Positions 24,160-54,859 of a stretch of DNA of 64,000 bases are shown here, piece after piece. The notes under the pieces are model-generated. The model saw only the letters and a list, made by a program, of their open reading frames with translations, was not told the origin of the DNA and did no database searches. Position 1 is the first letter of the stretch; every line of letters begins with the position of its first letter. A program made the translations under genes and the position numbers. Source of the DNA: a virus; the IMG/VR virus record IMGVR_UViG_3300045941_000233, positions 40,286 through 104,285 of that record; one strand, written 5' to 3'.

Positions 24160-24729
24160 ATGCCTAACGAAATCAAGCAAAAGGTTGGCACGCAGCTTCG
24201 GTTCTGCGTTAGCGGCTCGTTCTCTCCGGCCGATTCGGCCACTAACTGGACGATTGGCTCGCCGACTAACGTAACACTGACGCAAAGCGGTCTGGCCAAC
24301 GGCGCAGGCCGGCAGTCCGCCAAGTTCGATTTTGGCTCCACCCGGGCAGCAGCCTTCGAATGCCTCGCCGCGGCGGATTTTACCGACGAAACTCCGACGG
24401 CGGGCGGCACTATCGATTATTACTTCGCGCCATCGACCAGCACCACGCAGGCAGACGGCAACGTCGCCGGAAACTCGGGGGCGGACGGCGCCGCGCCGGA
24501 CGGCGCTTTGGGCTCGATCACGCTGGCCGAGTTCCTGAAGCAGTGCATTTTTATTGGGTCGCTTGTGACGCATGACGGGGCCGTCGTGCAGAACGGTTTT
24601 GTTGGAATTCTGCGGCCCACCAGTCGCTACGGACAGTTGATCGTCGTGAACAACAGCGGCGATGCGCTTGAAGCAGACGACGTGGAAAATCATGTAGTCC
24701 TGAACCCAATCGTCGATGAGTTTCAATAA
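24160..24729 (+). CDS. hypothetical beta-rich protein, likely structural
   Basis: 189 aa, G/A/T-rich. Confidence 0.6.
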   Translation: MPNEIKQKVGTQLRFCVSGSFSPADSATNWTIGSPTNVTLTQSGLANGAGRQSAKFDFGSTRAAAFECLAAADFTDETPTAGGTIDYYFAPSTSTTQADGNVAGNSGADGAAPDGALGSITLAEFLKQCIFIGSLVTHDGAVVQNGFVGILRPTSRYGQLIVVNNSGDALEADDVENHVVLNPIVDEFQ

Positions 24730-25555
24730 ACACGGCTGGCTTGACAGTGCTACTCCTGTCAATTGGTTCCACCCCCTCAATCGCGGCCTTGTGGCCGAGT
24801 GGGCGGTAGTACAGCCAGGCTACGGGGGGACTGCTTTTCGTAATCTGGTTACTCGCGGTCTGGTTAAAAACGGCGCCAACAACGCCAATATCACATGGCT
24901 GCGCCGGAATCTGGTTTTCAATGGGACCAATACCAGAGTCAGCCTGGACGACTCGTCTGCGCTCATTGCCTCCGGTGATTTTTCCATCGTCAGCATCTAC
25001 ACTCCCACCGATGCCGTGTCGGGGGGCATGATCTACCGGATGGGCGACAACCCATCGGACAACGACGCCAACTTACAGCAAGGCAATCTATTCAATGGTG
25101 GCACCGCCAGCCGCATTTCTCTCATCCACTACAGCGCTGGGTGGCAGGTCTGCACTGGCGCTACGGATCTTGTGAATGGCCGTCGATACTGGGCGGCTGG
25201 GACTTTCAGCGGAACTAATGGCAGTGTCGTGTACTTGAACGGAGTGGCGGACGGCACAGATGGCAACACTACCCGCGGCGGAGTGCCTTCCACGCATGCC
25301 GCCATTGGGGCTAATGCCGTCACCGACCAGTATTACCTAAACGGATCCATAGAGAGCGTATTACTCTACAACCGGGCGCTCACCGCCGGCGAATGCTTGT
25401 CCTTGTATAAGGAAATGATGCAGGACAATCCCTTCCGATGGAATTGGATCAACAACAGCTTAGTCAGGAATGTAGGCGCGGCATTAAAATCGAGGGGACT
25501 GCTTAGCGGCGGTAATCTGCTAGGCCAGGGGATGCTTTCCGGCGGAAGGCTTTAG
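24716..25555 (+). CDS. LamG/concanavalin A-like domain protein
   Basis: LVFNGTN, FSIV, GRRYWAAGTF, VYLNGV, AIGA, LNGSIESVLLYNRALT. Confidence 0.85.
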   Translation: MSFNKHGWLDSATPVNWFHPLNRGLVAEWAVVQPGYGGTAFRNLVTRGLVKNGANNANITWLRRNLVFNGTNTRVSLDDSSALIASGDFSIVSIYTPTDAVSGGMIYRMGDNPSDNDANLQQGNLFNGGTASRISLIHYSAGWQVCTGATDLVNGRRYWAAGTFSGTNGSVVYLNGVADGTDGNTTRGGVPSTHAAIGANAVTDQYYLNGSIESVLLYNRALTAGECLSLYKEMMQDNPFRWNWINNSLVRNVGAALKSRGLLSGGNLLGQGMLSGGRL

Positions 25556-25559: not shown

Positions 25560-26264
25560 ATGGGATTCAAAGGCATTGACGTTCGAGAAACCGGCGACAG
25601 GATCGTCGTACGCGCGTTTTTGCTGGATTCTTCCGGCGCAAAGGTGACGTCCGGGGAAGCCTCGCTGTATCTCTATGAACTTCAGTCCGACGGGTCTTTG
25701 AAGTCGTTTGATTTTCGCGACCTGACTTTCAAGACCACCAATCTGCACTCGGAAACACTGGCGCTCACCCACCAGACCGGCAACAACGGCCAGACCAATA
25801 CGGGGATCTGGACCGGCGCTTTTGAAGTCGATCGCACGCTCGAATCTTCATCGTCGCAGTGGTCTAGCCAGTCTGGCGATTCATTTTCGTCCGAGTCCAG
25901 CATCAATGAAGAAACGGAATTCACGAAGGGCAATATTTACATCGCGCTCGTAAACCACTCTTCCGCAAGCCCGCCCTGGCAGGGCCGCGAGTTCCAATAT
26001 GGCGAGGCGGAAGGCGACGGACTGGCGGCAATTGCTGACGCGACCCTCTTCCGCAACTGGATTACGGCCGTGGCCGAGCTCGAAGCCGATGGCGACTCCG
26101 TGCCGGCCCGTTCCTTGATTCAGGCGGCCCGCTTCATTCGCAATAAGTTCAGCACGACCGACAATCCTGGCTTTGTGACGGTTTATGAAGAGGACGACGC
26201 GACAGAAGCCTATCAAAAGGCCCTGACTACAGATCCGGCCGCAGAGCCGATTGTCGAAGGCTAA
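25560..26264 (+). CDS. putative structural protein with internal Ser patch
   Basis: ESSSSQWSSQSGDSFSSESS insert. Confidence 0.65.
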   Translation: MGFKGIDVRETGDRIVVRAFLLDSSGAKVTSGEASLYLYELQSDGSLKSFDFRDLTFKTTNLHSETLALTHQTGNNGQTNTGIWTGAFEVDRTLESSSSQWSSQSGDSFSSESSINEETEFTKGNIYIALVNHSSASPPWQGREFQYGEAEGDGLAAIADATLFRNWITAVAELEADGDSVPARSLIQAARFIRNKFSTTDNPGFVTVYEEDDATEAYQKALTTDPAAEPIVEG

Positions 26265-26549: not shown

Positions 26550-28868
26550 ATGACGACCATAAACTTTGGCGGACATGAGAGAGGAACGGCGGCGGAAACC
26601 GCCATCACTGGCGGTACGTTTTCTATTCAGTCCACCACGAAGCGCACCGGCACTTACGCCTTGCAATGCAATCCGGCAAGCGGAGTAGCTGGCTACAACG
26701 GCTTTCACAACATCTTGGCGAACGGTGGCGGCACATCTCTGGCCAGGACCGCCGAAACTTTTTACACGACTTACTTTCGATTTGTCAGCATTCCGTCAGG
26801 CACCACTAAGTTTGTGCAGGTCGTATCGAATACGCCGTCCGATGTTGTGGTAGTGCAGATCGACTCATCGGGGAACGTCAAGCTTGTAGGCACCACAACA
26901 TCGGCGACGATTGCCACGGTAACTTCTGGGACATGGTACAGGCTTGACTTGCGAGTGACCAGCAACGGCACCAGCGGCGCAAGTATCGACGGCGGAGCCG
27001 AGCAAACAGTAACAGCCAACAACATCACGCAAGACAGGTTTGTGCAGGGACGGATTAGCACCGAAGCAGTCGCGATGGACGTGATCTTCGACGATTGGCA
27101 TATCGACGACGCCGGGTTTCCTGGCGCGGGCGAATGCCGAATGTGTTCGACCACGGGAGACGGGACATACACGGGATGGGTGACTGGCACTGGCACAACC
27201 GAAGCGGAAGTCGATGACACTCCGAGCGATGCTGACACCACCTATATCGCCGTGCCGGCCACCGGAGACAACACCGCTCGGACGTTCGCGATGGAGGATT
27301 GCACGACGGTTGGCATCGAGGGAACGATCCGGGCCGTCAAATGCATCTGCTCCGTTAGAACCGAATCAACCACTGGCTCATCTACGGTTGGATTGCGGGT
27401 ACGGTCCGGATCGACTGACAGCGATACAACCGGTGTGGAATGGACGACGACCTACGCTAATCATCAAAAGCTGCTAACGACCGACCCTAATGGCGGCGGC
27501 TCGTGGACAAGCAGCGGCGTCGATGGCGTCGAGTGCGGTGTATTTGCCGGGTCTATCGCCCAGATTCAGCGCTGCACGACGGTTTCGCTGATGGTGTGGA
27601 GTAGCGGCGTAGATGAGTCCTCAAGTTCCGATTCCAGCGCTTCGTCGGCGAGCTCCGCGTCCTCAATCAGCAGTCTTTCGTCGCTCTCTTCGCCGTCGTC
27701 TGCCTCTAGCGCAAGCTCGATTTCTTCCCTTAGCAGCCTGTCGTCTCTGTCCAGCCAGTCATCGGCTTCCAGCGCCAGCAGTATTAGCAGTGTCAGTGAT
27801 GCAAGCAGCGGAAGCAGCGCAAGTAGCGCAAGCAGCCTTTCGTCTCCAAGCAGCGGATCGTCGGCAAGTTCCGCTTCGTCTTTTGGTCCCACGGCCGGCT
27901 ATCGATCGTTCACGGCGTTCTGGTTGGGTGGCGCATCGGCGCCAGGAGAGGAAGATTCGTCGTCATCGTCGGTCTCTTCCGCAAGCAGCCAGTCCTCACT
28001 CAGCAGCCAGAGCAGCCTATCGTCGGCGAGCAGCGCGTCGAGCCTGTCGAGCCCTTCCAGCGCGTCATCGCTTTCGTCGCCAAGCTCCGCAAGCTCTCTC
28101 AGCAGTCTTTCGTCGGTGAGCTCGCTGTCGTCGGCGAGCAGCGCATCGTCGGTATCCTCGTTGTCGTCTATTTCCTCACTGTCCCGGCCGTCAAGTTCCA
28201 GCAGCCCGACTTCGGCCAGTTCCGCAAGCAGCCAGTCTAGCGCGTCGTCCGCCTCTTCGCTTAGTTCGGTATCGTCTCAAAGCTCCGGATCGTCGGCGAG
28301 TTCTCTTTCTTCTTCAAGCAGTCTTTCGTCGGCATCATCGGCATCGTCGGCCAGTTCGGCAAGCAGTTTGTCGTCGGTTTCATCTCTTAGCAGCCAGTCA
28401 TCAGCCAGTTCGGCGAGCTCTGCGAGCTCGTCAAGCTCCCTGTCATCCCAAAGCAGCCAGTCGTCGGCATCTTCCGCATCCAGCGCGAGCAGTATTTCTT
28501 CGCTCAGCAGCCAGAGCTCGGCGAGCAGCGCATCGTCTGCGAGCTCATTGTCCAGCAGTTTTTCGTCGGCGAGCAGCGATTCTTCCGTCAGCAGCTTGTC
28601 GTCACTCAGCAGCCAATCGCAGAGTTTTTCTAGCGAGTCATCGTCAACGTCCAGCATGGTCGAGCGGCCGATCTACCCCGGCGACACGGCTTGGTCGCAG
28701 CTTGGCCCTGGCGATGCAGCTTGGAACCAGCGCGGCCCCGGTAGCGCGTCCTGGACCCAGCGAGGGCCGGCCGGCACAGCCTGGACCCAGCGAGGCCCTG
28801 GCGGCGCCGACTTGTCGCCGCGCGGTCCTGGCGGCATTTCGATTCGACCAAAACGCACTAATCCGTGA
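26550..28868 (+). CDS. serine-rich repeat protein 1 (beta-rich N-terminal domains + (SSX)n tract)
   Basis: About 355 aa of T/G-rich lectin-like domains, then about 345 aa of SSX repeats and C-terminal GPG decapeptide repeats. Confidence 0.8.
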   Translation: MTTINFGGHERGTAAETAITGGTFSIQSTTKRTGTYALQCNPASGVAGYNGFHNILANGGGTSLARTAETFYTTYFRFVSIPSGTTKFVQVVSNTPSDVVVVQIDSSGNVKLVGTTTSATIATVTSGTWYRLDLRVTSNGTSGASIDGGAEQTVTANNITQDRFVQGRISTEAVAMDVIFDDWHIDDAGFPGAGECRMCSTTGDGTYTGWVTGTGTTEAEVDDTPSDADTTYIAVPATGDNTARTFAMEDCTTVGIEGTIRAVKCICSVRTESTTGSSTVGLRVRSGSTDSDTTGVEWTTTYANHQKLLTTDPNGGGSWTSSGVDGVECGVFAGSIAQIQRCTTVSLMVWSSGVDESSSSDSSASSASSASSISSLSSLSSPSSASSASSISSLSSLSSLSSQSSASSASSISSVSDASSGSSASSASSLSSPSSGSSASSASSFGPTAGYRSFTAFWLGGASAPGEEDSSSSSVSSASSQSSLSSQSSLSSASSASSLSSPSSASSLSSPSSASSLSSLSSVSSLSSASSASSVSSLSSISSLSRPSSSSSPTSASSASSQSSASSASSLSSVSSQSSGSSASSLSSSSSLSSASSASSASSASSLSSVSSLSSQSSASSASSASSSSSLSSQSSQSSASSASSASSISSLSSQSSASSASSASSLSSSFSSASSDSSVSSLSSLSSQSQSFSSESSSTSSMVERPIYPGDTAWSQLGPGDAAWNQRGPGSASWTQRGPAGTAWTQRGPGGADLSPRGPGGISIRPKRTNP
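27613..28655 (+). repeat. (Ser-Ser-X)n coding tract, 9-bp period
   Basis: SSASSASSISSLSSLSSPSS...; mixed TCN/AGY codons. Confidence 0.9.
28677..28835 (+). repeat. 30-bp / 10-aa tandem repeat (about 5 copies)
   Basis: PGDTAWSQL GPGDAAWNQR GPGSASWTQR GPAGTAWTQR GPGGADLSPR GPGG. Confidence 0.85.
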
Positions 28869-28880
28869 TAATTAACCGCT

Positions 28881-29318
28881 ATGCCGTTCCTTGTTTCAGC
28901 CCGAAACCGCCGCGACCGTGAATGGGACATGACCATTTATGAAGACGACGGCACGACTGAGGTTGTGCTGGCGTCTGACGACGTGGTGCGGCTGAAAATC
29001 GGAACCAACGATGAAGAGCCGCCACTGGACCTATCCAGCCTCGATCCGGACGAAATCACGTTTACCGTCGGCACCGGCGATTGCGTTGTTTATTTGACGG
29101 CCGCCCAGGTTGCCGTCCTTGGCGCCGGCGTCTTCGACTGTGAAGTGAACGTGTACGACGAATCAGAAAACAAGTTCAAGCAGGCAGAATACGGCGCTTT
29201 CACCGTTCACCCGACGCAGCTTGGCGAGACCGGCGGCGAGCAGTCCAGCAGCAGCGGCGGGAGCTCGGAATCAAGTAGTTCTGGGGGTAGCTCTGAATCT
29301 AGTTCGTCGTCGTTCTAG
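28881..29318 (+). CDS. small acidic beta-domain protein with Ser tail; paralog of the C-terminus of 29328-32600
   Basis: RNRRDRE.D, DVVR.K, LDLSSLDP..ITFT.GTG.CVV.LTA.Q, GAG..D.E, VHPTQ shared. Confidence 0.8.
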   Translation: MPFLVSARNRRDREWDMTIYEDDGTTEVVLASDDVVRLKIGTNDEEPPLDLSSLDPDEITFTVGTGDCVVYLTAAQVAVLGAGVFDCEVNVYDESENKFKQAEYGAFTVHPTQLGETGGEQSSSSGGSSESSSSGGSSESSSSSF

Positions 29319-29327
29319 CGCCTGCGG

Positions 29328-32300
29328 GTGCGGCGCATGTATTACTACGGACTTCAACAATACGCCTGGCATGAGCTAGGAAATTCCGGCAAGGGGTATT
29401 GGAAGCTGCCGGCGGGCGTTGTCGGCGCGGTCGATCTGCGGACCATTCCCGCCCAATCTCAACGCGGCGGCACTCCGCAAGGCTTTGCGTTTGTTGCGTC
29501 AAAAGATCCTGTTGACGTGCTGATTTCCAGGGCCGAACACCTTGGAATCGAATTGGCCACAACGGAGATGCGTGACGCTTGGGAAGCCGAACTAGGCTAC
29601 CGCCCCAACGGCAACACGGTTGCCGATCTGCTTTGGGACATGCTTACCGCCGGCGCGGATCCGACCGGCGATTCAGCCTGCAAGCCGCTCATGCCGGCCA
29701 GGGATAACTTTTACGAATTGTTTTTGGGCGTCCACGGGCTTGTGAAGGATGAAGAGTTTTCTGCGGTGAGCGCGGCCGGCCTGAAATCGCTCGACTTGCT
29801 GCGACTCGAATATCGCCAGCACCGCCAGGATTCTTTAGACGGCTTGCATCGGGACACAAGGGGCCGGGTGGCACCACAGCATTACCGCAAGATTCTCGGC
29901 TTTTGGGTGCAAAAGTATGGCCTGGACTATCGGGCGTTTATTCCAAGCGACATGCCCGACGAGCGGCCGCTGCAGCCGGAAACGACCATTGTTGACGACT
30001 TTGATCGCGCCGACCAAAGCGGTCTCGGAACAGCGTCCGGCGGATTTACGTGGTCGAATCCTATCGGTAGCGTCCGCTGGGATATCGTCAGCAATCAGGC
30101 AAAGTACGGCGACGGAAGCGAGACCGGCGAGGATATCGAGCGGGCGGATGCTGACCTGTCGGGTACAGACCATTACGTCCAGATGAAGGTTGTCGAGGTT
30201 TTCGATGGCGGCGGCCCGGGCTTCTACAACTCGGCAGACACGATTTCGCGGAAAGATAACACGTCCACCGCGACGTACTATCTTGGCCAATGCTTCATCG
30301 AAAGCGCAATCAGTTACCACCGTCTATACAAAAATGTAAACGGCTCATTTTCGCAGCTTGGGAGCACTGCGGAGACTATCAATGCCAATGAAATTCAGAG
30401 GGTAGAGTGCGTCGGAACGACAATCCGGCTTTTGATCGATTCGGTGATAGTCCATGAAGTCACCGACTCATCGATTTCGACCGGCACGCGCACCGGCATC
30501 CGAAACGATTCAAGCCACGCCGATAATTACACGATTATCGACGATTTTGAGGCCGGCGACCTGGACGCCGACGAATCGTCTGCGAGCTCGGCATCTTCGG
30601 CTTCGTCGGTTTCGTCGCAATCGTCACTATCCAGCCCGTCTTCGCTATCGTCTGCGAGCTCGGCGTCGTCGGCTTCCAGCCAATCGTCGGTGTCCAGCCT
30701 GTCTTCCCCAAGCAGCGCTTCGTCGCTATCGTCCGCGAGCAGCCTGTCCAGCGCGTCGAGCCCTTCGTCGGCTTCCAGCCAGTCGTCAGCTTCAAGTCCG
30801 TCTTCCGCGAGCAGCCAGTCGAGCCAATCGTCGGCGAGCTCGCCGTCTTCCGTCAGCAGCCTTTCGTCGGCGTCGTCAGCGTCCAGCCAGTCTTCGGTAT
30901 CATCTCTAAGCAGCGCTTCGTCGCCGTCGTCGGCGAGCTCAGTTTCTTCCCAGAGCGCTAACGTCACGGCCGGCTATCGGTCGATGGCGGCCTTTTGGTT
31001 AGGTGGTGCCGCGGCAACCCCGGAGAGCGCGGCCAGTTCACAATCGAGCGCGTCGTCTCTTTCGTCGGCATCGTCCCTGTCGTCGGCATCGTCTTTGTCG
31101 TCGGCCAGCAGCGCCAGCAGCCAATCGAGCCAAAGCAGCCTATCGAGCGAATCGAGCTCTTCAAGCCTGTCCAGCGCCAGCAGCCAATCGTCAGCGAGCA
31201 GTCAGTCGAGCGCCAGCAGCCTTAGCTCCCAGAGCTCGCTTAGTTCGCCGTCGAGCGCATCAAGCCAGTCCAGCCAATCTTCGGCGTCGTCTGAGTCTTC
31301 GGCATCGTCATTGAGCAGCCCAAGCAGCGAATCGTCGGCCAGCAGCGTCAATAGTTCGTCGTCGTCCAGCAGCATCAGCCAGGTCAGCAGTTCATCTAGC
31401 AGCGTCAATAGTTCGTCGTCGTCCAGTAGTCTCAGCAGCCTTTCGTCGGCATCGAGCCAGTCATCCGCGAGCAGCCTTTCGTCGGAAAGCAGCCCGTCGT
31501 CCGCGAGCAGCTTATCATCGGCCAGCAGCGCTTCATCGGCCAGCAGCCAATCTTCCGCAAGCAGTCCGTCATCTGCCAGCAGCGCGTCGTCGGAATCGTC
31601 GGCTTCGTCGTCGTCGTCTCTCAGCAGTCAGAGCTCGGCATCGTCTCAAAGCTCGGCAAGCTCACTGTCCAGCGGTTCGAGCGCGTCCAGCGCGTCGAGC
31701 GCTTCAAGTGCTTCCAGCTTGTCGAGCGCTTCGAGCTCTTCCAGTGCGTCGAGTGCTTCGAGCGCGTCAAGCCTGTCGAGCGGGTCCAGCCAGTCGAGCG
31801 CGTCAAGTGCTTCCAGCCAGTCTTCCGCTTCGTCGCTGTCGTCCGGATCGTCGTCGTCCAGCGCGTCATCGGCCAGCAGTGCCAGCAGCCTTTCATCTCT
31901 CAGCAGTGCCAGCAGCGCATCGTCCGCGAGCTCTTCGAGCAGCGCATCGTCGCTGTCGTCTCAGTCGTCGCTTAGTTCCGCGAGCTCGGCCAGTTCCGCA
32001 AGTTCGGCAAGCTCCCTTAGCTCGGGCAGTAGTTCGTCATCGTCTTTTAGTAGTTCGTCGTCTTCGTCCTTTAGTAGCTCATCGTCTTCGTCTCTCTCTT
32101 CGCTTTCGTCATCGTCGCTTTCGTCATCGTCCAGCAGCCATTCGAGCTCTAGCGTCATTGAGGGCTTGGCAACCGCCCGGATGGGCATTGCCAGCTTTAT
32201 GCTTCACGTCCGCAACCGCCGGGACCGCGAATTTGATCTGATAATTTTCGAAAGCAACCGGCCAGTCGAAATTGTGCTGACGGAAAACGATGTCGTCCGG

Positions 32301-32600
32301 TTCAAGGTTTTCGAAAACGAAAAAACGCCAATCCTGGATCTGTCGAGCCTCGATCCGGGCCAGATTACATTTACCGCCGGGACCGGCGAATGCGTCGTCA
32401 ACCTGACCGCCAGCCAGATAGAAAGCCTCGGCGCCGGCGCATGGGATGCTGAAATCAGCGTTTGGGTGGAGTCCGAAGACAAACTGAAGAACACCGGCAG
32501 CGGCGTTATTTTTGTGCATCCTACGCAAACCGGGCAACATGCGGGCGAAGAGTCCAGCAGTTCCGGCAGCAGCGAGAATTCCTCAGTTTCCTCGTTCTAG
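29328..32600 (+). CDS. serine-rich repeat protein 2 (N-terminal domains + (SSX)n tract + C-terminal beta domain)
   Basis: About 410-aa N-region with a lectin-like DDFDRAD...IIDDFEAG domain, about 525-aa SSX tract, 140-aa C-domain; start GTG 29328 or ATG 29337. Confidence 0.8.
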   Translation: MRRMYYYGLQQYAWHELGNSGKGYWKLPAGVVGAVDLRTIPAQSQRGGTPQGFAFVASKDPVDVLISRAEHLGIELATTEMRDAWEAELGYRPNGNTVADLLWDMLTAGADPTGDSACKPLMPARDNFYELFLGVHGLVKDEEFSAVSAAGLKSLDLLRLEYRQHRQDSLDGLHRDTRGRVAPQHYRKILGFWVQKYGLDYRAFIPSDMPDERPLQPETTIVDDFDRADQSGLGTASGGFTWSNPIGSVRWDIVSNQAKYGDGSETGEDIERADADLSGTDHYVQMKVVEVFDGGGPGFYNSADTISRKDNTSTATYYLGQCFIESAISYHRLYKNVNGSFSQLGSTAETINANEIQRVECVGTTIRLLIDSVIVHEVTDSSISTGTRTGIRNDSSHADNYTIIDDFEAGDLDADESSASSASSASSVSSQSSLSSPSSLSSASSASSASSQSSVSSLSSPSSASSLSSASSLSSASSPSSASSQSSASSPSSASSQSSQSSASSPSSVSSLSSASSASSQSSVSSLSSASSPSSASSVSSQSANVTAGYRSMAAFWLGGAAATPESAASSQSSASSLSSASSLSSASSLSSASSASSQSSQSSLSSESSSSSLSSASSQSSASSQSSASSLSSQSSLSSPSSASSQSSQSSASSESSASSLSSPSSESSASSVNSSSSSSSISQVSSSSSSVNSSSSSSSLSSLSSASSQSSASSLSSESSPSSASSLSSASSASSASSQSSASSPSSASSASSESSASSSSSLSSQSSASSQSSASSLSSGSSASSASSASSASSLSSASSSSSASSASSASSLSSGSSQSSASSASSQSSASSLSSGSSSSSASSASSASSLSSLSSASSASSASSSSSASSLSSQSSLSSASSASSASSASSLSSGSSSSSSFSSSSSSSFSSSSSSSLSSLSSSSLSSSSSSHSSSSVIEGLATARMGIASFMLHVRNRRDREFDLIIFESNRPVEIVLTENDVVRFKVFENEKTPILDLSSLDPGQITFTAGTGECVVNLTASQIESLGAGAWDAEISVWVESEDKLKNTGSGVIFVHPTQTGQHAGEESSSSGSSENSSVSSF
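30570..32155 (+). repeat. (Ser-Ser-X)n coding tract
   Basis: SSASSASSVSSQSSLSSPSS... Confidence 0.9.
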
Positions 32601-41288: not shown

Positions 41289-42311
41289 ATGGACGATGAG
41301 AACACGATTTCGCGACTTGAGCCGCGGCCGAACCTGACCCCGGACCAATGGGCGGCCCTGCCGCGGCATGAACGCATTCGCCTTCGGCAATTGAAGTTAG
41401 CCCACCGCCGGGCTGAAGCAATCGCGGCCAGCCAGGACGGCGAGACGCCGGTAGAAGAGCCATCGGCATCGCGCCCACCGCCGGCCGATACGCCATTCCG
41501 AGACTCCCACAACCGGCCGCTGTACCTGGAAAATCTCTATTTCGGCGCTAGTTGCTTTTTGATGCTCTCGGGACCGTCGGCACTGAGTAACGACCTGACA
41601 GAGCTAAGACGGCGCGGCATCTACACAATCGCCGTCAACAATGCGGCCACGATCATTCGCCCGAATTCCTGGATTTTCGTGGACCCGCCGGAGAAGTTTC
41701 ATTCGGCAATCTGGCTGGATCCGGCGGTGACGAAGTTCGTTCACAACCGGTTCCTGGAATATCGACTGCGCGAGAAAATCGGCGACGAATTCCGCAAGCT
41801 GGACCGGCCGGACGGCAAGCCGGCCCACGTTCGGGATATGCCTGGCGTGGTGTCGATTATTCGCAACGCCGACTTTCGGCCCAATCGCTGGCTGAGAGAG
41901 TCGTCGATCAACTGGGGAAACTCCAAACGGTCGGCCCGCCGGAACAATCAACCGCGCGATCTGAATGTGATGCTGGCGGCCCTGAAGCTGGCCTACGTGC
42001 TCGGCTTCCGGGCGGTTTACTTGCTGGGCTGTGATTTCCTGATGACGGACGATCAGCCGTATTCGTTCACCGAAAACAAGCACGCTTCGGCCGTCGGCAG
42101 CAACAACAACAAATATCGCCGCATTACGGAGATGCTTCAGATTCTGAAGCCGTACTTCGAGGGCGCCGGGTTTCACGTTCGCAACTGCAACCCGCGAAGC
42201 GGATTGACGCTTTTCCCGTTCGTCTCTTACACGGAGGCTATCCAGGCCGCCAGCGGCCACGTCCCGCAAGACCCGCTCGACACGATGAATTGGTACAGGA
42301 AAGGAAACTAG
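41289..42311 (+). CDS. Maf/DUF115-like (GT42-fold-like) putative glycosyltransferase
   Basis: CFLMLSGPS, IAVNN, WIFVD, ALKLAYVLGFRAVYLLGCDF, VRNCN..S.L..FP. Confidence 0.72.
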   Translation: MDDENTISRLEPRPNLTPDQWAALPRHERIRLRQLKLAHRRAEAIAASQDGETPVEEPSASRPPPADTPFRDSHNRPLYLENLYFGASCFLMLSGPSALSNDLTELRRRGIYTIAVNNAATIIRPNSWIFVDPPEKFHSAIWLDPAVTKFVHNRFLEYRLREKIGDEFRKLDRPDGKPAHVRDMPGVVSIIRNADFRPNRWLRESSINWGNSKRSARRNNQPRDLNVMLAALKLAYVLGFRAVYLLGCDFLMTDDQPYSFTENKHASAVGSNNNKYRRITEMLQILKPYFEGAGFHVRNCNPRSGLTLFPFVSYTEAIQAASGHVPQDPLDTMNWYRKGN

Positions 42312-42318
42312 GGGGGAT

Positions 42319-42678
42319 ATGACCGAAAATCAAGCCATCCCGTTCGGCAATGTGCCGGCCGGCAATGAAATGGATTCTCTGTCTGGCATTCCGGACTCCC
42401 TCTTCAATGCCTTGCGGCACGCCATGAAGAACAGCGGCGGCCGATACGGAATCGCCGTCTTCACCCACGACGAAAACTGCAACGAAGTTCTTTTGAATTT
42501 CAATTACGGTCCGGCGTGGAGCGGCAAGTGTTTTCTGACCGCCTACGGTCTTTTCGTCGGCGAGTTTTTGAAGGTCACGCCAGGACTGATTAACGCGATC
42601 AACCGGACGACGGAAGCCGCGCAGTCGCCGCAGGCCAGCTTCGGACCGGCCCCGCCAGCGGAGATTCCGCCGCTATGA
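42319..42678 (+). CDS. hypothetical protein
   Basis: Coupled ORF with G-rich SD. Confidence 0.55.
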   Translation: MTENQAIPFGNVPAGNEMDSLSGIPDSLFNALRHAMKNSGGRYGIAVFTHDENCNEVLLNFNYGPAWSGKCFLTAYGLFVGEFLKVTPGLINAINRTTEAAQSPQASFGPAPPAEIPPL

Positions 42679-43079
42679 CAGGGCCGGCCGCCAGACCAAT
42701 CGAAGTCGGATTAGGCACATGGATTGAAAAATCTTGGGGCTGGTTCCGGACACTGTTCCGCGACGATCAAGTCGAAATTGTCGAGGCCGAGATTGTCGCC
42801 GGCGGCTATAGCAGTCAGCACAAGCACCTATACAAGAGCAACACGTTCCAAGTGATAACCGGCGAGCTCGAAGTCCAGACCTATCCGGCGTCACTGAAGC
42901 CGACGAAGTACGTTCTGACGCCAACGGCCGATTCGATCACCATCCCGGCATTTGTTCCGCATAAGTTTTTCGCTCCGCAAGCCACGCGACTAATTGAAAC
43001 ATACGTCGCTTCGCAGCGCGGCCGCGCCATCGAGCCAGACGATATAGTCCGGTTCAGTGACGGGGGAATTAGGAAGTGA
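42675..43079 (+). CDS. cupin (mannose-6-phosphate isomerase type II-like)
   Basis: EKSWG, SSQHKHLYK, IPAFVPHKF, DIVRF. Confidence 0.75.
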   Translation: MTGPAARPIEVGLGTWIEKSWGWFRTLFRDDQVEIVEAEIVAGGYSSQHKHLYKSNTFQVITGELEVQTYPASLKPTKYVLTPTADSITIPAFVPHKFFAPQATRLIETYVASQRGRAIEPDDIVRFSDGGIRK

Positions 43080-43864
43080 TTCCCGATTTTACTATTGTCG
43101 TCGCGATCGACCCGGCTCACCTTGCCGAGTTGCGCCTGTCCTATCCGACCTGGATCCGACACCATCCGGAACTGGCCGATAGGCCGATGGTCGTGATTTG
43201 CGACGGCGACAGACATCCAGACGGCGCGCCGGCCAGGCCCGGGGCAACGGTCGCATGGTGGGGAGCCATCGAGGATATTGTTTATCCGTTTCACCGCGGG
43301 AAAATCCACCCAATATTCGCGAGCAGCAGCGATCCGCAAATCAGCCAGCGGGAGAAGATGCTTTCGGCGTTTGTGTTGAAGGCGCCGCTCCGCGTCGATA
43401 CGCCGTGGTATCTGAAAATCGACACGGACTGCATCGCCACCGTCGGCGGCGACTGGGTTTATCCGGAATGGTTCGAACGCGAACCGGTTCTGATTGCCCC
43501 CGCGTGGGGCTACACAAAGCCGGGCAGCATGCTCGACAAGCTCGACGATTGGGCCGACTGCAATCCGGAGCTCGTTCTACGGCCCCCGCCGGCCCGCCGC
43601 GCCGTCGGCCAAATCGCCAAGCATCGCCGCATCATTTCCTATTGCATGTTTGGCCGGACGGACTGGACCCGGAATATTGCAAAACTGTGCGGCGATCGAC
43701 TGCCGGTCCCGAGCCAGGACACGTTTTTGTGGTACTGCGCCGAGCGGCTTGGCCATCTTTGGATGCCGGCAAAAATGAACGGCTGGCGGCATGTTGGCGG
43801 CGGCGGCCAGCGACTGAGAATCGCGGCGCAAGAGGCGATGAAGACCGAGGGGGTGACTGCATGA
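43076..43864 (+). CDS. putative GT-A glycosyltransferase
   Basis: TPWYLKIDTD (DxD), SQDT. Confidence 0.55.
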   Translation: MIPDFTIVVAIDPAHLAELRLSYPTWIRHHPELADRPMVVICDGDRHPDGAPARPGATVAWWGAIEDIVYPFHRGKIHPIFASSSDPQISQREKMLSAFVLKAPLRVDTPWYLKIDTDCIATVGGDWVYPEWFEREPVLIAPAWGYTKPGSMLDKLDDWADCNPELVLRPPPARRAVGQIAKHRRIISYCMFGRTDWTRNIAKLCGDRLPVPSQDTFLWYCAERLGHLWMPAKMNGWRHVGGGGQRLRIAAQEAMKTEGVTA

Positions 43865-44526
43865 GCATGGGAGACAGCGGTCGTTTTGTCGAAATCCTGG
43901 AAGCCCATTTCGGCCCCGGCGGCGGACGAATGCATACGGGCGTCGAAATCGGAACGCACCGCGGGGGACTGTCGGAAAGGCTCCTGCGCAAATTTCCTGC
44001 GCTGATGCTGTTCATGGTCGATTCTTATTGCGAACACGACAAAGAATCCGACTACCGCAAGACGGGCGACAAGTGCTCCCGTCTCAGCTACGACCAACAG
44101 CAAGAGCATTACAAGGTGGCCCTGCGGGTTACGTCATTTGCCGGACACCGCCGGACGATCTTGAAAATTCCGAGTTCTGAAGCAGCCTTTCGCATTCCAT
44201 GCCCGCGGCTGTCGTTCGCTTTCCTGGATGGATCCCACTCACTCCCAGACGTTCGGCACGACTGCTTGATCTGGTGGCCGCGAGTCGAAGCCGGCGGCAT
44301 TATGGGCGGCCACGATTACGGCCATCCGCGCTATGGCGGCGTCGAAGTTGCCGTGAAGGAATTTGCGGCCCGCGAGCAAGTGGAAATCAGGACGGCGGGA
44401 AGTTGCTGGTGGGCGGTGAAGCCTGACACGCTTGTTGCGGCCGCCGATTCCGGCAGCCTGCCATCTTTGGACATGGGAGTGCAGACGATTAACGTCGATT
44501 CTGGCGACGTTGACGATTTCGATTAA
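43861..44526 (+). CDS. class I SAM methyltransferase (Methyltransf_24-like)
   Basis: GVEIGTHRG, VDSY, FAFLDGSH, GGIMGGHDY, GVEVAV. Confidence 0.88.
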   Translation: MSMGDSGRFVEILEAHFGPGGGRMHTGVEIGTHRGGLSERLLRKFPALMLFMVDSYCEHDKESDYRKTGDKCSRLSYDQQQEHYKVALRVTSFAGHRRTILKIPSSEAAFRIPCPRLSFAFLDGSHSLPDVRHDCLIWWPRVEAGGIMGGHDYGHPRYGGVEVAVKEFAAREQVEIRTAGSCWWAVKPDTLVAAADSGSLPSLDMGVQTINVDSGDVDDFD

Positions 44527-44539
44527 AGGAGTTTTTGAG

Positions 44540-44959
44540 ATGAAAAATCAAAAAAAGGAAGCGCTTCGCAACGAGTCTATACACGATATCGACGAAGTGC
44601 TTTTTGAGGTTGGACGGTATGAGGCGATGAATCGCCGGCCGAATGAAACAGGCTACGACGTTTTCCCCATCATGCCGCAAGGGTGGTTTGGTCGATCGGT
44701 CGAAATGCTGCGCGAAAGCATCGGAGCCAGGAAAAGGCTTCCGGACTGCGGCGAAGCTATCTGGAAGTCGATCACCGACATTGCTTTTTCTGGCAACGAG
44801 GGCGATATCGATCGACTGATGCATGAGTTTCGGCTGTGGCTGATTTTTCAGCGCGGAAAAGTCACGTTCGGCAGTGGCCGCCGGCCGGAAACTTTCCCGG
44901 GAGAGGAATCGACATCGACAAGCGAAAGCAGTAGCAGCCTGACCATCAGCGAGGATTGA
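44540..44959 (+). CDS. hypothetical protein with Ser-rich tail
   Basis: AAGGAG SD; EESTSTSESSSS. Confidence 0.6.
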   Translation: MKNQKKEALRNESIHDIDEVLFEVGRYEAMNRRPNETGYDVFPIMPQGWFGRSVEMLRESIGARKRLPDCGEAIWKSITDIAFSGNEGDIDRLMHEFRLWLIFQRGKVTFGSGRRPETFPGEESTSTSESSSSLTISED

Positions 44960-44960
44960 T

Positions 44961-45722
44961 TTGCCGGAGACCGTTTTAGCTTCGATCATTAACTGGCGGC
45001 GGCCAGAAAACATCCACGCGCTGTTGACCCGCTACCGCGAGCAAACGGTTCCGCTGCATATCGTCCTGGTCGAGTGTTCGCCGGATTCGGAATTCGCGGC
45101 CCCGCCGGAAGCCGTCGCACTGGCCGACGTCGTAATCACAATCAACCGCAACCTGACGGCATGCTCCCGGTTCATTCCGCCGCTAATGATGCCGCAGTTT
45201 CGGTACACGTTCTTTGGCGTTGACGATCATCTCCCCGGCCGCCGGCACGTCGAATGCCTGCTGCGCTGTGCCGAGTCTCTTGGCGGAAGGTTTGCCACAA
45301 TCGGCCAGGACGGAAGATGCTTCCGGAATGGCGCTATCCACAAGCGGCGAGCCAGGCCCTATCCATCGACACCGCGGCCGATCGACGTCGTAACGAGCTC
45401 TGAATTGATGGAGACAAGGAACATCGCCGACGCGATCATTTTTCGCCAGCGATTGCGCGAGTACGAGGGCAGCGACGAATTCATCACGGAAGACGATTTG
45501 ATCCTTTGCATGGCCCTGCAAACGAAGCTGGCGGCGCCGTGCTACGTGACTCCGCAGCCAGGCGAAGACGAATGGTGGGCCGAAAAGCGACTGCCATCCG
45601 ACCACGCGCTGTCGGGACGGCCGAATCACATCGACAGACGGAATCAGATGATCCAGAAAATGACGGATCTTGGCTGGCGGTCGATGGTTCCGAAGAGCGA
45701 ATCAGGAGACGAAGGCGAATGA
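44961..45722 (+). CDS. putative GT2-like glycosyltransferase
   Basis: NWRRPEN, RF, VDDHLPG, EDDL. Confidence 0.6.
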   Translation: MPETVLASIINWRRPENIHALLTRYREQTVPLHIVLVECSPDSEFAAPPEAVALADVVITINRNLTACSRFIPPLMMPQFRYTFFGVDDHLPGRRHVECLLRCAESLGGRFATIGQDGRCFRNGAIHKRRARPYPSTPRPIDVVTSSELMETRNIADAIIFRQRLREYEGSDEFITEDDLILCMALQTKLAAPCYVTPQPGEDEWWAEKRLPSDHALSGRPNHIDRRNQMIQKMTDLGWRSMVPKSESGDEGE

Positions 45723-46825
45723 GCGAGCCAGTGCTGGTCAAAGACCGCAGATTCATTCCAGTTGCCAAGCCCTGGATTACGGACTGTGAGATAGAGGCGG
45801 CAAGCAAGGTCGTTCGATCTGGCTGGATTTCGGCCGGCCAGCAAGTCGAGGAATTCGAGCATGAATTCGCGGCGGCCCACGGCAAAAGATACGGGGTCGC
45901 GTGCAACAGCGGGACTACAGCGCTGCAGTTGGCCATCACGGCCGCCGGAGTTGAGGCCGGCGATCGTGTCGCATGCCCAACAATGACGATGGTGGCCTGC
46001 CCAAACGCCATCATTTCCGCCGGCGGCAATCCATTTTTGCTTGACTCCGTGCCGGGCTCCGGATGCATGGACCTGGACGAAATTCCAGCCCGTCGATATC
46101 GGCCGAAGGCCATTTTGTATGTTCACCTTTACGGGGTGCCGGTCGAGTTTGACGCTGACACTTGGATTGCGAAGGCGATCGAGGACTGCGCAGAAGCACA
46201 CTACGGCAGTTTCGAAAACGGCTCACCGGTTGGCAGCCGCGGCGACTTTGCTTGTTTTTCGTTTTTCGCCAACAAGATCATTGCATGCGGCGAAGGCGGC
46301 ATGGTCCTGACGAACAGCGCCGAAGATGCCGAACGAATGCGAGGGCTCCGCGCCCATGCATTCACCAAAGGCGAGCACTTCCACCACCGCGAGCACGCCT
46401 TGGGTGTTCGCATGACCGACATGCAAGCGGCAATCGGACTTTCCCAGCACCGACGGCGGGAACAGATAATCCAGCGGCGGCGCCGGATTTTCAGGCAGTA
46501 CATGGCCGGCCCTTGGCCGGATTGGGTCCGGTTTCAGTGGCGAACTCCCGGCTCTGCCGATTGGGTTTTCCCTATTTTGGTTCGCGAAGGCTTCGGACTG
46601 ACTCGCGACATGGTTCGCCAGCATCTCGGTTCGGCTGGAATAGAAACGCGATCATGGTTTAAGCCGATGCATCGGCAGCCGCACCTAAAGCGGTTCGCAG
46701 ACGGAGAGCTCTTTCCAGTTGCCGACGATCTTGCACGGCGCGGCTTGTATTTGCCTATTTATCCGGAAATGACGGACGATGACGTTTCCTATGTCATCGA
46801 AACCGTTGCAGCCATTCGCGCGTAG
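45719..46825 (+). CDS. DegT/DnrJ-family sugar aminotransferase (perosamine synthase-like)
   Basis: NSGTTAL, VHLYG, IEDCAEAH, FSFFANKII..GEGG, RMTDMQAAIG, GLYLP. Confidence 0.92.
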   Translation: MSEPVLVKDRRFIPVAKPWITDCEIEAASKVVRSGWISAGQQVEEFEHEFAAAHGKRYGVACNSGTTALQLAITAAGVEAGDRVACPTMTMVACPNAIISAGGNPFLLDSVPGSGCMDLDEIPARRYRPKAILYVHLYGVPVEFDADTWIAKAIEDCAEAHYGSFENGSPVGSRGDFACFSFFANKIIACGEGGMVLTNSAEDAERMRGLRAHAFTKGEHFHHREHALGVRMTDMQAAIGLSQHRRREQIIQRRRRIFRQYMAGPWPDWVRFQWRTPGSADWVFPILVREGFGLTRDMVRQHLGSAGIETRSWFKPMHRQPHLKRFADGELFPVADDLARRGLYLPIYPEMTDDDVSYVIETVAAIRA

Positions 46826-49454: not shown

Positions 49455-49463
49455 CGTTCGGAC

Positions 49464-54827: not shown

Positions 54828-54859
54828 CGATTTGCGGGCGGCTTTTCTAGTCTCGCCCG

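What the first reader, a model, noticed from the sequence alone, without database searches (positions are those of the whole stretch)
26550..32600. Two giant (Ser-Ser-X)n proteins with tripeptide periodicity
Seen: tracts of about 345 and 525 aa of mostly SSX (X = A, L, Q, P, V, I, E, G), encoded by mixed TCN/AGY codons rather than an exact DNA repeat, so they are maintained at protein level. Known: bacterial serine-rich repeat adhesins use (S-X)n dipeptides, and a period of 3 matches polyproline-II or collagen-like geometry. Inference: an extended, probably glycosylated stalk presenting N-terminal lectin-like domains as a flexible fibre on the capsid or neck.
Basis: partly seen in the sequence, partly recalled or inferred. 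Interest (0 to 1): 0.8.

Follow-up and report, generated by a model that had tools for sequence, protein, structure and literature searches.

The report
Phage fibre proteins with Ser-Ser-X stalks
An uncultured 104-kb phage encodes two large fibre-like proteins whose middles are 350 and 526 residues of a strict Ser-Ser-X repeat kept by selection on the protein; the repeat most likely acts as a long, probably sugar-coated spacer between a carbohydrate-binding-type head and small attachment elements.

Summary
ORFs 26550-28868 (772 aa, P1) and 29328-32600 (1090 aa, P2) carry tracts of 350 and 526 aa that are 63-66% Ser. Period 3 is strict: lag-3 autocorrelation is 0.78 and 0.83, z = 14-19 against shuffles. 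All six Ser codons are used, and no exact DNA repeat exceeds 29 bp.

The window is the structural half of an IMG/VR virus record. P1's first 355 aa fold confidently (pLDDT 96) into a ConA-like jelly roll plus a second beta domain. This module belongs to a phage family of more than 2,000 proteins. Its other members carry different repetitive spacers, or none, and often end in short basic Gly-rich tails. Only one of the 150 best relatives has a Ser tract.

P2 has an unrelated head. Its C-terminal beta-sandwich is also encoded separately as P3 (28881-29318). Both tracts are split once by a conserved 15-aa island. That island sits at the N-termini of unrelated proteins on two metagenome contigs, so it is a portable peptide tag.

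The phage also carries a large cluster of soluble sugar-pathway enzymes and glycosyltransferases, so O-glycosylation of the tracts is plausible but unproven. Head, neck or tail placement is unresolved. This scan has noted poly-Ser fibres next to glycan clusters before on other DNA (at least 44 genomes). What is new here is the tripeptide register and the island.

The parts
26550..28868 (+). P1, 772-aa fibre-like protein: head, SSX, island, SSX, basic Trp/Gly/Arg tail
   Evidence: ORF; no Pfam or PHROG hit; ends in a double stop TGA TAA
26550..27614 (+). P1 head, aa 1-355: ConA-like jelly roll (aa 1-195) plus a second beta domain
   Evidence: AF2 with 55 homologues gives pLDDT 96 and pTM 0.92. 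VIA Z 18.8 to PL20 lyase 2zzj and Cip1 3zyp, Z 15-18 to sialidase lectin domains. BFVD whole-module TM 0.67-0.79 to phage proteins. 2292 relatives at E<=1e-3.
27615..27884 (+). P1 SSX tract, first part (aa 356-445)
27891..27935 (+). Conserved 15-aa island TAGYRSFTAFWLGGA in P1
   Evidence: 13 of 15 residues identical to the P2 copy, with synonymous codon differences. 14 of 14 identical to aa 15-28 of a 472-aa protein on L018.
27957..28664 (+). P1 SSX tract, second part (aa 470-705)
28665..28865 (+). P1 C-terminal tail: 10-aa GPGxxAWxQR repeats, then RGPGG..RGPGGISIRPKR
   Evidence: TRF period 30 at 28717-28798. The same kind of basic Gly/Pro tail ends many family members.
28881..29318 (+). P3, 145 aa: small beta-sandwich-like protein with an acidic Ser tail ending SSSSSF
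   Evidence: 54% identical to P2 aa 957-1073. Two homologues at 72-73% keep the tail. Atlas lead to BppU_N / LtfC-like beta-sandwiches, TM 0.54-0.57.
29328..32600 (+). P2, 1090-aa fibre-like protein: head, SSX, island, SSX, P3-like domain, acidic Ser tail
   Evidence: ORF; no Pfam or PHROG hit
29328..30572 (+). P2 head, aa 1-415; unrelated in sequence to the P1 head
   Evidence: Homologues P0001 (49%) and P0002 (31%) have quite different C-terminal parts and no Ser tract. hhalign against the P1 family gives probability 0.1%.
30573..30956 (+). P2 SSX tract, first part (aa 416-543)
30966..31010 (+). Conserved 15-aa island TAGYRSMAAFWLGGA in P2
31035..32147 (+). P2 SSX tract, second part (aa 570-940), including a run of 70 units with no register break
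32196..32597 (+). P2 C-terminal P3-like domain plus acidic Ser tail ending SSF
24716..25555 (+). Neighbouring LamG-type protein that ends in a Gly-rich basic tail (RGLLSGGNLLGQGMLSGGRL)
   Evidence: Pfam Laminin_G_3 at 6.6e-12; phrog_8510 virion structural protein; tail sequence read and found again by pattern
25560..26264 (+). 234-aa protein with an internal acidic Ser patch; its C-terminus is conserved on L019 just upstream of a motif-bearing gene
41289..62100 (+). Glycan synthesis and transfer cluster, the candidate modifier of the Ser tracts
   Evidence: DegT aminotransferase at 2.4e-82, GT2 at 8.3e-21, two radical SAM enzymes, 2OG oxygenase and methyltransferases. A cupin, 4-5 further glycosyltransferases and an MptE/CST-I-like match fall below the curated cut-offs. 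No polytopic membrane protein among 28 ORFs.
5666..6454 (+). Cytidylyltransferase (CTP_transf_3, KdsB/NeuA type)
   Evidence: E 2.3e-24
1..528 (+). 3' part of a GDP-mannose 4,6-dehydratase gene that starts upstream of the window
   Evidence: E 4.9e-117 at genome 39764-40783

Best explanation
P1 and P2 are modular fibre-type surface proteins of the phage particle. Each has a globular head. P1's head is a ConA-like carbohydrate-binding or glycan-cleaving type jelly roll plus a second beta domain; P2's head is unrelated. Each head is joined by a very long (Ser-Ser-X)n spacer to small C-terminal elements. In P1 this is a basic Gly/Pro/Trp/Arg tail of the kind that ends many relatives. In P2 it is a BppU_N-like beta-sandwich, which is also made separately as P3.

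The spacer is split once by a conserved 15-aa hydrophobic island. I read the island as a portable docking tag. The SSX tract is kept by selection on the protein, including its register. It serves as a long hydrophilic tether, roughly 100-160 nm if fully extended.

The tract is probably O-glycosylated in the cytoplasm by the phage's own soluble glycan machinery. That would stiffen it into a mucin-like or AFGP-like brush and shield the particle.

Shown: the tracts, their codon make-up, the domain layout, the fold of the P1 head, the family's variable-spacer design, the spread of the island, and the enzyme cluster. Inferred: presence in the virion, which end is attached, glycosylation, and conformation.
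For: The genes lie in a single-strand structural operon: portal 10852, protease 13945, capsid 15527, head-tail adaptor 32659, tape measure 36291.

The P1 head model has pLDDT 96. Its first domain matches lectin and glucanase folds at Z 15-19. The whole module matches phage proteins at TM 0.67-0.79. One of these is AchV4_0026, which LC-MS/MS detected in virions (hhalign probability 73%).

Of the 150 best relatives of the head, about half are head-only. The rest carry unrelated repetitive spacers with 18-24-aa Ala/Thr/Gly/Val-rich units. Many end in basic Gly-rich tails like P1's. The spacer is therefore the exchangeable part.

Selection on the protein is indicated by six interleaved Ser codons with 38-40% AGY, exact DNA repeats of 29 bp or less, and a 70-unit run with no register slip despite saturated synonymous divergence.

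The island is 13/15 identical between the paralogues with synonymous changes. It recurs at the N-terminus of a 472-aa protein (L018) and twice in tandem in a 93-aa protein (L019).

Sugar genes: GMD, DegT aminotransferase, cytidylyltransferase, one strong GT2 and 4-5 weaker glycosyltransferases, methyltransferases and radical SAM enzymes. None is a polytopic membrane protein.

Short acidic Ser tags occur on at least four other ORFs in and just downstream of the structural module (25560, 38992, 39876, 44432), and are conserved in P3's relatives. A related contig whose P1-like protein has no Ser tract has no GT2 or DegT (n = 1).

Precedent: glycans at the C-termini of mycobacteriophage capsid and tail-tube subunits (Freeman 2023, as summarised in PMC12619734).
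Against: There are no proteomic, imaging or glycan data. No enzyme of the cluster could be tied to protein O-glycosylation: the MptE-like/CST-I match of 41289-42311 is far below cut-off. The cluster could instead serve DNA or host-surface modification.

The tracts are nearly uncharged and about 25-30% of X is Leu/Val/Ile, so an unmodified chain might collapse rather than extend (my estimate from composition).

Placement is ambiguous. Gene order says head or neck, while relatives and neighbours elsewhere say tail.

No relative with an SSX tract was found, so conservation of the register across lineages could not be tested.
Confidence: 0.5

Rival explanations
1. The tract is a plain polyserine-type flexible linker. 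It is an unglycosylated, hydrophilic, protease-tolerant tether like the polyserine linkers of bacterial carbohydrate-active enzymes. The glycan cluster serves another target, such as DNA or the host envelope.
For: Polyserine linkers separate catalytic and carbohydrate-binding modules in more than a quarter of the Saccharophagus degradans depolymerases (PMC2386152). P1's head has the same fold class as such modules. No protein O-glycosyltransferase signature was established.
Against: The tracts are 5-10 times longer than the linkers listed in that paper (25-58 residues). The strict SSX register and the frequent Leu/Val/Ile are not expected of a mere linker. Ser tags occur on several other ORFs in and near the structural module, alongside a cluster of some 28 ORFs that is all soluble.
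Confidence: 0.25
2. The tract is an ordered period-3 structure. (SSX)n forms a defined rod, for example a bundle of polyproline-II-type helices with X residues lined up on one face, perhaps as a trimer, rather than a flexible chain.
For: The register is kept for up to 70 units. In a three-residue-per-turn helix all X residues fall on one edge. AFGPs, (Ala-Ala-Thr)n, adopt a PPII-like helix (PMC5274654).
Against: There is no Gly at a fixed position, so a collagen triple helix is excluded. X is heterogeneous (A, L, Q, P, V, E, G).
Confidence: 0.08
3. The tract is a substrate or scaffold for some other chemistry, or the proteins are not virion components. The Ser tracts could be phosphorylated, or modified by the radical SAM/SPASM or 2OG enzymes. 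Alternatively the proteins act inside the cell or in the lysate, for example by binding host polysaccharide.
For: Two radical SAM enzymes (one with a weak SPASM match), a 2OG oxygenase and two metalloproteases are encoded by the phage. Nothing shows that P1 and P2 are in the particle.
Against: The genes sit inside the structural operon. A relative of the head is a proven virion protein. The radical SAM and 2OG enzymes sit among sugar-pathway genes and are more simply read as sugar tailoring.
Confidence: 0.1
4. The feature is an artefact: a mis-assembly, a wrong reading frame or non-coding low-complexity DNA.
For: The record is a metagenome assembly. All three forward frames are open across the tracts.
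Against: Homologous globular domains flank the P2 tract in one frame. Exact repeats are 29 bp or less. The island is conserved with synonymous changes and is found on independent contigs.
Confidence: 0.02

Closest known systems
Mycobacteriophage virion glycosylation (Che8, Corndog, Myrna; Freeman et al. 2023, known here only through PMC12619734)
   Same: Phage-encoded glycosyltransferases are thought to decorate the phage's own structural proteins in the cytoplasm. Short terminal tags on structural proteins are the acceptors, and the glycans shield the particle.
   Different: There the acceptors are short C-terminal ends of capsid and tail-tube subunits and the enzyme set is small. Here the candidate acceptors are 350-526-aa internal tracts in separate fibre proteins and the cluster spans about 20 kb. 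No glycan has been observed here.
Serine-rich repeat glycoproteins of Gram-positive bacteria (Fap1, GspB, PsrP; my own knowledge)
   Same: Very long Ser-rich repeat stalks present a binding domain. They are heavily O-glycosylated in the cytoplasm before assembly.
   Different: SRRPs use Ser-X dipeptides, a special signal peptide, the accessory Sec system and an LPXTG anchor. None of these is present here. The repeat here is a tripeptide and the protein is viral.
Polyserine linkers of carbohydrate-active enzymes (Saccharophagus, Cellvibrio; PMC2386152)
   Same: Ser-dominated spacers join jelly-roll carbohydrate-binding or catalytic modules to other modules.
   Different: Those linkers are tens of residues long, near-pure Ser, without a tripeptide register, in secreted bacterial enzymes.
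Antifreeze glycoproteins, (Ala-Ala-Thr)n (PMC5274654)
   Same: A tripeptide repeat with a hydroxy amino acid in fixed register. It is O-glycosylated and adopts a three-residue-per-turn PPII-like helix with glycans on one face.
   Different: One Thr per three residues rather than two Ser. AFGPs have 4-55 units, are eukaryotic and secreted, and the function is unrelated.
AchV4_0026-type virion structural proteins of Casjensviridae and other phages (PMC7996906; BFVD hits)
   Same: The same two-domain beta module as the P1 head (TM 0.72; hhalign probability 73%). The protein is present in virions.
   Different: About 350 aa, head only, no spacer, encoded after the tail-fibre gene.
Poly-Ser fibre plus glycan cluster loci noted earlier by this scan (e.g. 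e1-5751804, e1-5340045, e1-1054201)
   Same: Uncultured phages with long Ser tracts in fibre-like proteins and large glycosylation gene sets.
   Different: Those notes describe near-pure poly-Ser or Ser/Val/Pro/Thr tracts. Here the tract has a strict SSX register and a conserved peptide island. They are AI notes that I did not check.

Membership tests
Collagen-like triple-helix proteins | Gly at every third residue (Gly-X-Y) | tested here: not met
   The fixed positions are Ser-Ser. Gly is 3 of 97 and 4 of 151 X residues.
Serine-rich repeat glycoproteins (SRRP) | Ser-X dipeptide repeat regions | tested here: not met
   The period is 3, not 2: autocorrelation is negative at lags 1 and 2 and 0.78-0.83 at lag 3.
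Serine-rich repeat glycoproteins (SRRP) | Long N-terminal signal peptide and C-terminal LPXTG anchor | tested here: not met
   P1 and P2 start directly with globular domains that are homologous from residue 1. Their C-termini read RPKRTNP and SSVSSF.
Serine-rich repeat glycoproteins (SRRP) | Linked GtfA/GtfB and accessory Sec genes | tested here: inconclusive
   Pfam scans of the cluster gave GT2, weak GT1, GT8 and GT32-type matches and no Sec components. No dedicated GtfA/B model was searched.
P1-head family (ConA-like plus second beta domain; more than 2,000 phage proteins, unnamed) | Full-length sequence similarity to the 355-aa module | tested here: met
   phmmer found 2292 hits at E<=1e-3 and 253 at E<=1e-30. 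The top hits cover aa 1-355 at 50-59% identity.
P1-head family | Two-domain all-beta fold shared with phage virion proteins | tested here: met
   AF2 pLDDT 96. BFVD TM 0.67-0.79 over the whole module. AchV4_0026 was detected by MS.
ConA-like lectin/glucanase superfamily | Jelly-roll beta-sandwich fold | tested here: met
   Z 18.8, rmsd 2.4 over 180 residues to 2zzj; Z 18.8 to 3zyp; Z 15-18 to sialidase lectin domains. Pfam itself gave no hit for P1.
ConA-like lectin/glucanase superfamily | Sugar binding or lyase/hydrolase activity | not testable with these tools
   Fold alone shows no function. No catalytic residues were mapped.
BppU_N / LtfC-like beta-sandwich (P3 and the P2 C-terminus) | Match to PF10651 or PF23926, or a confident structural match | tested here: inconclusive
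   No Pfam hit. Atlas leads only: feature score 0.87-0.90 and TM 0.54-0.57 on a model with pLDDT 0.56.
Phage virion glycosylation systems (Che8 type) | Phage-encoded glycosyltransferases together with Ser/Thr acceptor tags on structural proteins | tested here: met
   GT2 at 8.3e-21 and weaker glycosyltransferases. Ser tags are on P1, P2, P3 and four more ORFs.
Phage virion glycosylation systems (Che8 type) | Glycan demonstrably attached to virion proteins | not testable with these tools
   This needs mass spectrometry or glycan staining of particles.
Polyserine linkers (PSL) | Short, near-pure Ser run between modules of a secreted carbohydrate-active enzyme | tested here: not met
   The tracts are 350 and 526 aa, only two-thirds Ser, in strict tripeptide register, and in a phage structural operon.

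The most novel reading that the evidence does not exclude
(Ser-Ser-X)n is a previously undescribed glyco-rod element. It would be a register-selected, AFGP-like polyproline-II stalk whose two Ser edges carry phage-made sugars and whose X edge stays bare. It would be clamped to the particle, or to a partner such as P3, through the portable 15-aa island AGYRSxxAFWLGGA. Each protein would then form a two-armed fibre. The island would be a new kind of plug-in docking tag shared among unrelated phage proteins.
Probability: 0.15. Interest if true: 0.8.

Novelty: new variant of a known kind. Interest (0 to 1): 0.55.

Why it matters
If the tracts are glycosylated, this phage would carry hundreds of sugar sites per fibre. 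That is far beyond the short tags known from mycobacteriophages, and it would be a bacterial-virus counterpart of mucins. Such coats could affect adsorption to polysaccharide layers, particle stability, and recognition by host defences or by animal immune systems.

The P1-head family offers a natural experiment: one head combined with dozens of different spacers shows how phage fibres swap stalks. The 15-aa island, found at N-termini of unrelated proteins, may be a simple transferable attachment peptide useful for phage display or engineering. The strict tripeptide register is a testable clue to either enzyme specificity or stalk geometry.

Tried and rejected
Searches with no result:
- Pfam and PHROGs on P1, P2 and P3 gave no family.
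- IMG/VR scans with the single proteins P1 head, P2 head, P3 and the capsid protein found no relatives.
- tblastn of the capsid protein and the P1 head against 50,697 phage records found no match. A central family member hit only a Streptomyces phage minor tail protein weakly.
- The first metagenome scan, with the P3 alignment, found nothing.
- A word-index search with the island plus flanking SSX found nothing at E<=0.1, probably because of composition filtering.
- PDB sequence searches with the P2 head, the P3 alignment and ORF 19612 gave nothing meaningful.
- Pfam and PHROGs on seven long relatives were essentially empty.

Steps that failed or could not be run:
- The single-sequence AF2 run of the P1 head failed (pLDDT 32). 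That used one of the two fold jobs, so P2's head, P3 and the tract itself were not folded.
- A degenerate codon pattern to find SSX tracts across IMG/VR could not be run. The spread of SSX tracts in other phage proteomes therefore remains untested.
- The Freeman 2023 and Howard 2004 papers are not held.

Readings rejected:
- Stop-codon read-through joining P1 to P3: the two are in frame but separated by TGA TAA.
- A collagen-like helix: there is no Gly register.
- Homology between the P1 and P2 heads, or between the P1 head and the neighbouring LamG protein.

Full report
**Setting.** The window is the last 64 kb of a single 104,285-bp contig that the tools treat as an IMG/VR virus record, 93% complete by CheckV. 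All sizeable genes are on the + strand and there are no tRNA genes. PHROG matches lay out a siphovirus-type structural operon:
- portal, 10852-12351
- head maturation protease, 13945-15489
- major head protein, 15527-17197
- head-tail adaptor, 32659-33447
- a Neck1-like protein, 34217-34561
- tape measure, 36291-38054

The finding lies in an unusual 15-kb block of about 15 ORFs between the capsid and adaptor genes. Only about 3 kb of genes follow the tape measure before a sugar-enzyme cluster begins. No classical large tail fibre gene is therefore visible downstream.

**Observation.** ORF 26550-28868 (P1, 772 aa) and ORF 29328-32600 (P2, 1090 aa) are as described.
- Uninterrupted (SSX)n runs reach 38 units in P1 and 70 units in P2.
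- Over aa 356-705 of P1 and aa 415-940 of P2, Ser is 63% and 66%.
- The lag-3 autocorrelation of non-Ser positions is 0.78 and 0.83. No value among 2000 shuffles exceeded 0.17 (z = 14.5 and 19.3).
- X is mostly Ala, Leu and Gln, then Val, Pro, Ile, Gly and Glu.
- All six Ser codons occur at both Ser positions, and AGY is 38-40%.
- Most 9-bp units are unique: 78 of 97 and 108 of 151.
- The longest exact DNA repeats are 20 bp, 29 bp and, between the genes, 17 bp.
- TRF reports only degenerate arrays with periods that are multiples of 9.

The tracts therefore probably grew by old duplications of 9-54-bp units and have since diverged at synonymous sites while staying Ser-Ser-X. Switching between TCN and AGY needs two base changes, so their interleaving argues for long-standing selection for Ser.

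A one- or two-codon indel would break the register without breaking the frame. A 210-residue run with no register slip, in DNA this diverged, suggests the register itself matters. That last step is inference.

The frame is certain. In P2 the N-terminal head (homologous to P0001 and P0002) and the C-terminal domain (homologous to P3) are in one frame across the tract. Collapse-type mis-assembly is unlikely with such short exact repeats. Read mapping was not possible.

**Anatomy of P1.** Residues 1-355 found 2292 relatives at E<=1e-3 among 1.84 billion representatives, 253 of them below 1e-30. With 55 of these as an alignment, AlphaFold gave pLDDT 96 and pTM 0.92: two all-beta domains.
- Domain 1 (aa 1-195) is a ConA-like jelly roll. 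It scores Z 18.8 to the PL20 glucuronan lyase 2zzj and to Cip1 3zyp, Z 15-18 to the lectin domains of sialidases and trans-sialidases, and Z 13-15 to PL7, PL14 and PL18 alginate lyases.
Whether the domain binds or cleaves a glycan cannot be told.
- The whole two-domain module matches predicted structures of uncharacterised phage proteins of 320-365 aa at TM 0.67-0.79. These include a 'virion structural protein' of Achromobacter phage vB_AchrS_AchV4.
- That protein is AchV4_0026 (352 aa). It is encoded after the putative tail fibre gene at the end of the tail cluster and was detected in particles by LC-MS/MS (PMC7996906). A profile comparison supports distant homology of the second domain (probability 73%, E 3e-5).

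**The family shows what the Ser tract replaces.** About half of the 150 best relatives are the head alone plus a short tail. The others carry C-terminal extensions of up to 1,800 residues. These are repetitive but all different: 18-24-aa units rich in Ala, Thr, Gly and Val. Only one, P0130, has a Ser tract, and it is a near-pure poly-Ser with periodic Arg or Lys.

Many members, long or short, end in a short basic Gly-rich peptide such as RRxLLGVG, RxxIPGG or PPGGxR. P1 ends in four GPGxxAWxQR repeats followed by RGPGG..RGPGGISIRPKR, which is the same style. The neighbouring LamG protein (24716-25555) ends in RGLLSGGNLLGQGMLSGGRL.

The constant parts are thus the head and a small C-terminal tail, and the exchangeable part is the spacer. 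This supports the reading that SSX is a stalk or tether.

**Anatomy of P2 and P3.**
- P2's first 415 residues are unrelated in sequence to P1's head.
- They have two homologues, P0001 (49% identity) and P0002 (31%). Neither has a Ser tract. One continues into about 22-aa VPxGLxxFxG-type repeats, the same kind of repeat as in the P1-family member P0011. The other continues into about 1,000 residues of other sequence.
- P2's last 130 residues are 54% identical to P3, a separate 145-aa gene that follows P1.
- P1 and P3 are in the same frame, but TGA TAA separates them, so read-through is not the design.
- P3 has two homologues at 72-73% identity. Both keep an acidic Ser tail that ends in SSSSSF. 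P2 ends in SSVSSF.
- The ESM Atlas places P3 near BppU_N and LtfC-like beta-sandwiches of phage tail and fibre proteins. This is a lead only.

**The island.** Each tract is interrupted once by TAGYRS[FM][TA]AFWLGGA, at 27891-27935 and 30966-31010. The two copies are 13 of 15 identical. Across the 28 aligned codons around the island there are 8 identical, 8 synonymous and 12 non-synonymous pairs. These are the only two copies in the genome.

A back-translated scan of JGI metagenomes found the island on two more contigs.
- On L018 it forms residues 15-28 (14 of 14 identical to P1) of a 472-aa protein. A Pro/Glu/Val linker and a globular part follow.
- On L019 it occurs twice in tandem at the start of a 93-aa protein, which then runs into a Gly/Arg-rich and acidic-hydrophobic tail.
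- On L019 the gene just upstream is homologous at its C-terminus to window ORF 25560-26264 (45% identity, E 4e-10), so the neighbourhood is partly syntenic. The gene before that matches 'minor tail protein' PHROGs.

A short hydrophobic peptide that keeps its sequence while moving between unrelated proteins and positions looks like a docking or assembly tag. Its partner is unknown. Because it is N-terminal elsewhere, P1 and P2 may have arisen by fusing a head-plus-spacer gene to an island-led gene. That is speculation.

**Glycosylation context.**
- Above the curated cut-offs: a DegT/DnrJ aminotransferase (45506-46825, 2.4e-82), a GT2 (54105-54827, 8.3e-21), a radical SAM enzyme (49464-50588) with a further weak SPASM match, a second radical SAM enzyme (58176-59120) that scores exactly at its cut-off, a 2OG-Fe(II) oxygenase and three or four methyltransferases.
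- Below cut-off: a mannose-6-P-isomerase-type cupin, GT2-like, GT1-like, GT8-like and DXD sugar-binding (GT32-type) ORFs, and an ORF with faint MptE-like/CST-I similarity.
- Elsewhere in the genome: a GDP-mannose 4,6-dehydratase (4.9e-117) and a KdsB/NeuA-type cytidylyltransferase (2.3e-24).
- GMD plus a DegT aminotransferase is the classical route to GDP-perosamine-type sugars (my own knowledge).
- None of the 28 ORFs checked (the cluster ORFs and the cytidylyltransferase) has more than one borderline hydrophobic segment. There is thus no flippase, polymerase or ligase as expected for lipid-linked surface polysaccharide. A soluble cytoplasmic acceptor fits better.
- Ser-rich patches or tails also occur on ORFs 25560-26264, 38992-40017, 39876-40763 and 44432-44959.
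- The one related viral contig found (L001, P1-like protein at 54% identity, no Ser tract) has neither GT2 nor DegT. That is a single comparison.
- Glycans on C-terminal ends of mycobacteriophage capsid and tail-tube proteins are the published precedent (Freeman 2023, as summarised in PMC12619734).

All of this makes O-glycosylation of the tracts the most economical reading. No enzyme here is tied to protein glycosylation and no glycan has been seen.

**Conformation.** Collagen is excluded because there is no Gly register. A three-residue-per-turn PPII helix would place all X residues on one edge and the Ser hydroxyls on the other two. AFGPs, (Ala-Ala-Thr)n with a glycan on every Thr, adopt such a helix (PMC5274654), so a glycosylated SSX rod is conceivable. 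Without glycans, the near absence of charge and the 25-30% Leu/Val/Ile at X would favour a compact or sticky chain. That in turn argues that some modification keeps it soluble and extended.

**Placement on the particle.** Gene order, between the capsid and adaptor genes, favours head or neck fibres. The relatives point the other way: AchV4_0026 lies at the end of a tail cluster, L019 sits beside a minor-tail-like gene, and L001 sits beside a beta-helix-like ORF and lysis-like genes. I leave this open.

**Novelty.** The literature held here has nothing on Ser-Ser-X stalks or poly-Ser phage fibres. This scan itself has already flagged poly-Ser fibres next to glycan clusters in at least 44 other genomes (AI notes, unchecked by me). 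The particular points here are:
- the strict tripeptide register;
- the demonstration that the tract is one of many interchangeable spacers behind a widespread ConA-like head;
- the duplicated C-terminal domain, present both as P3 and as the P2 C-terminus;
- the portable 15-aa island.

I class the finding as a new variant of a known kind.

**Verdict.** The best explanation is virion fibre proteins with a selected, probably glycosylated SSX tether, at confidence 0.5.

Noticed in passing
window 27891-27935 and 30966-31010; L018:1060-2478; L019:2863-3144: The 15-aa island AGYRSxxAFWLGGA is not confined to the Ser proteins. It sits at the N-terminus of a 472-aa protein on one metagenome contig and twice in tandem in a 93-aa protein on another. 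It behaves as a portable peptide module with an unknown partner.
   Followed up: partly
C-termini of P0008, P0015, P0042, P0061, P0079, P0084, P0088, P0116, P0117 and others; window 25496-25555 and 28800-28865: Relatives of the P1 head, and the neighbouring LamG protein, often end in short basic Gly-rich peptides (RRxLLGVG, RxxIPGG, GLLxGG repeats). A second tail type, basic then acidic then hydrophobic (RRR..EEDEE..LLL), ends P0012, P0045, P0080, P0143 and the L019 93-aa protein. These may be attachment peptides.
   Followed up: partly
window 29250-29318, 32547-32597, 39960-40017, 44900-44959, 25860-25940: Short acidic Ser tags (for example EQSSSSGGSSESSSSGGSSESSSSSF) occur on P3, P2 and several other ORFs. 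The terminal SSF is conserved in P3's homologues at 72-73% identity.
   Followed up: partly
window 52188-52988: An HNH endonuclease with an HTH domain is inserted in the middle of the sugar-enzyme cluster. It looks like a homing-type insertion.
   Followed up: no
window 33459-33842: A NifU-like Fe-S cluster assembly protein (phrog_8429, 1.3e-16) is encoded between the head-tail adaptor and the neck genes. It may serve the two radical SAM enzymes.
   Followed up: no
window 19104-19772 and 56888-58171: Two metalloprotease-like ORFs: Peptidase_M10 at 1.4e-6 inside the block between capsid and adaptor genes, and a reprolysin-like ORF at 3.5e-5 in the sugar cluster.
   Followed up: no
window 3007-4945: Other notes of this scan describe a hairpin repeat array joined to an IS110/Nop-like ORF just after the terminase gene. 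I did not examine it.
   Followed up: no
window 38156-41253: Only four small ORFs (174-341 aa, no family matches) follow the tape measure gene before the sugar cluster. The phage has no obvious large tail-tip or fibre gene there, so receptor binding may fall to the block between the capsid and adaptor genes.
   Followed up: partly
L001:10001-12944: In the related viral contig the P1-like gene (846 aa, VPxGLxxFxG-type repeats instead of SSX) is also followed at once by a small 133-aa ORF. BLASTP finds no similarity between that ORF and P3.
   Followed up: partly
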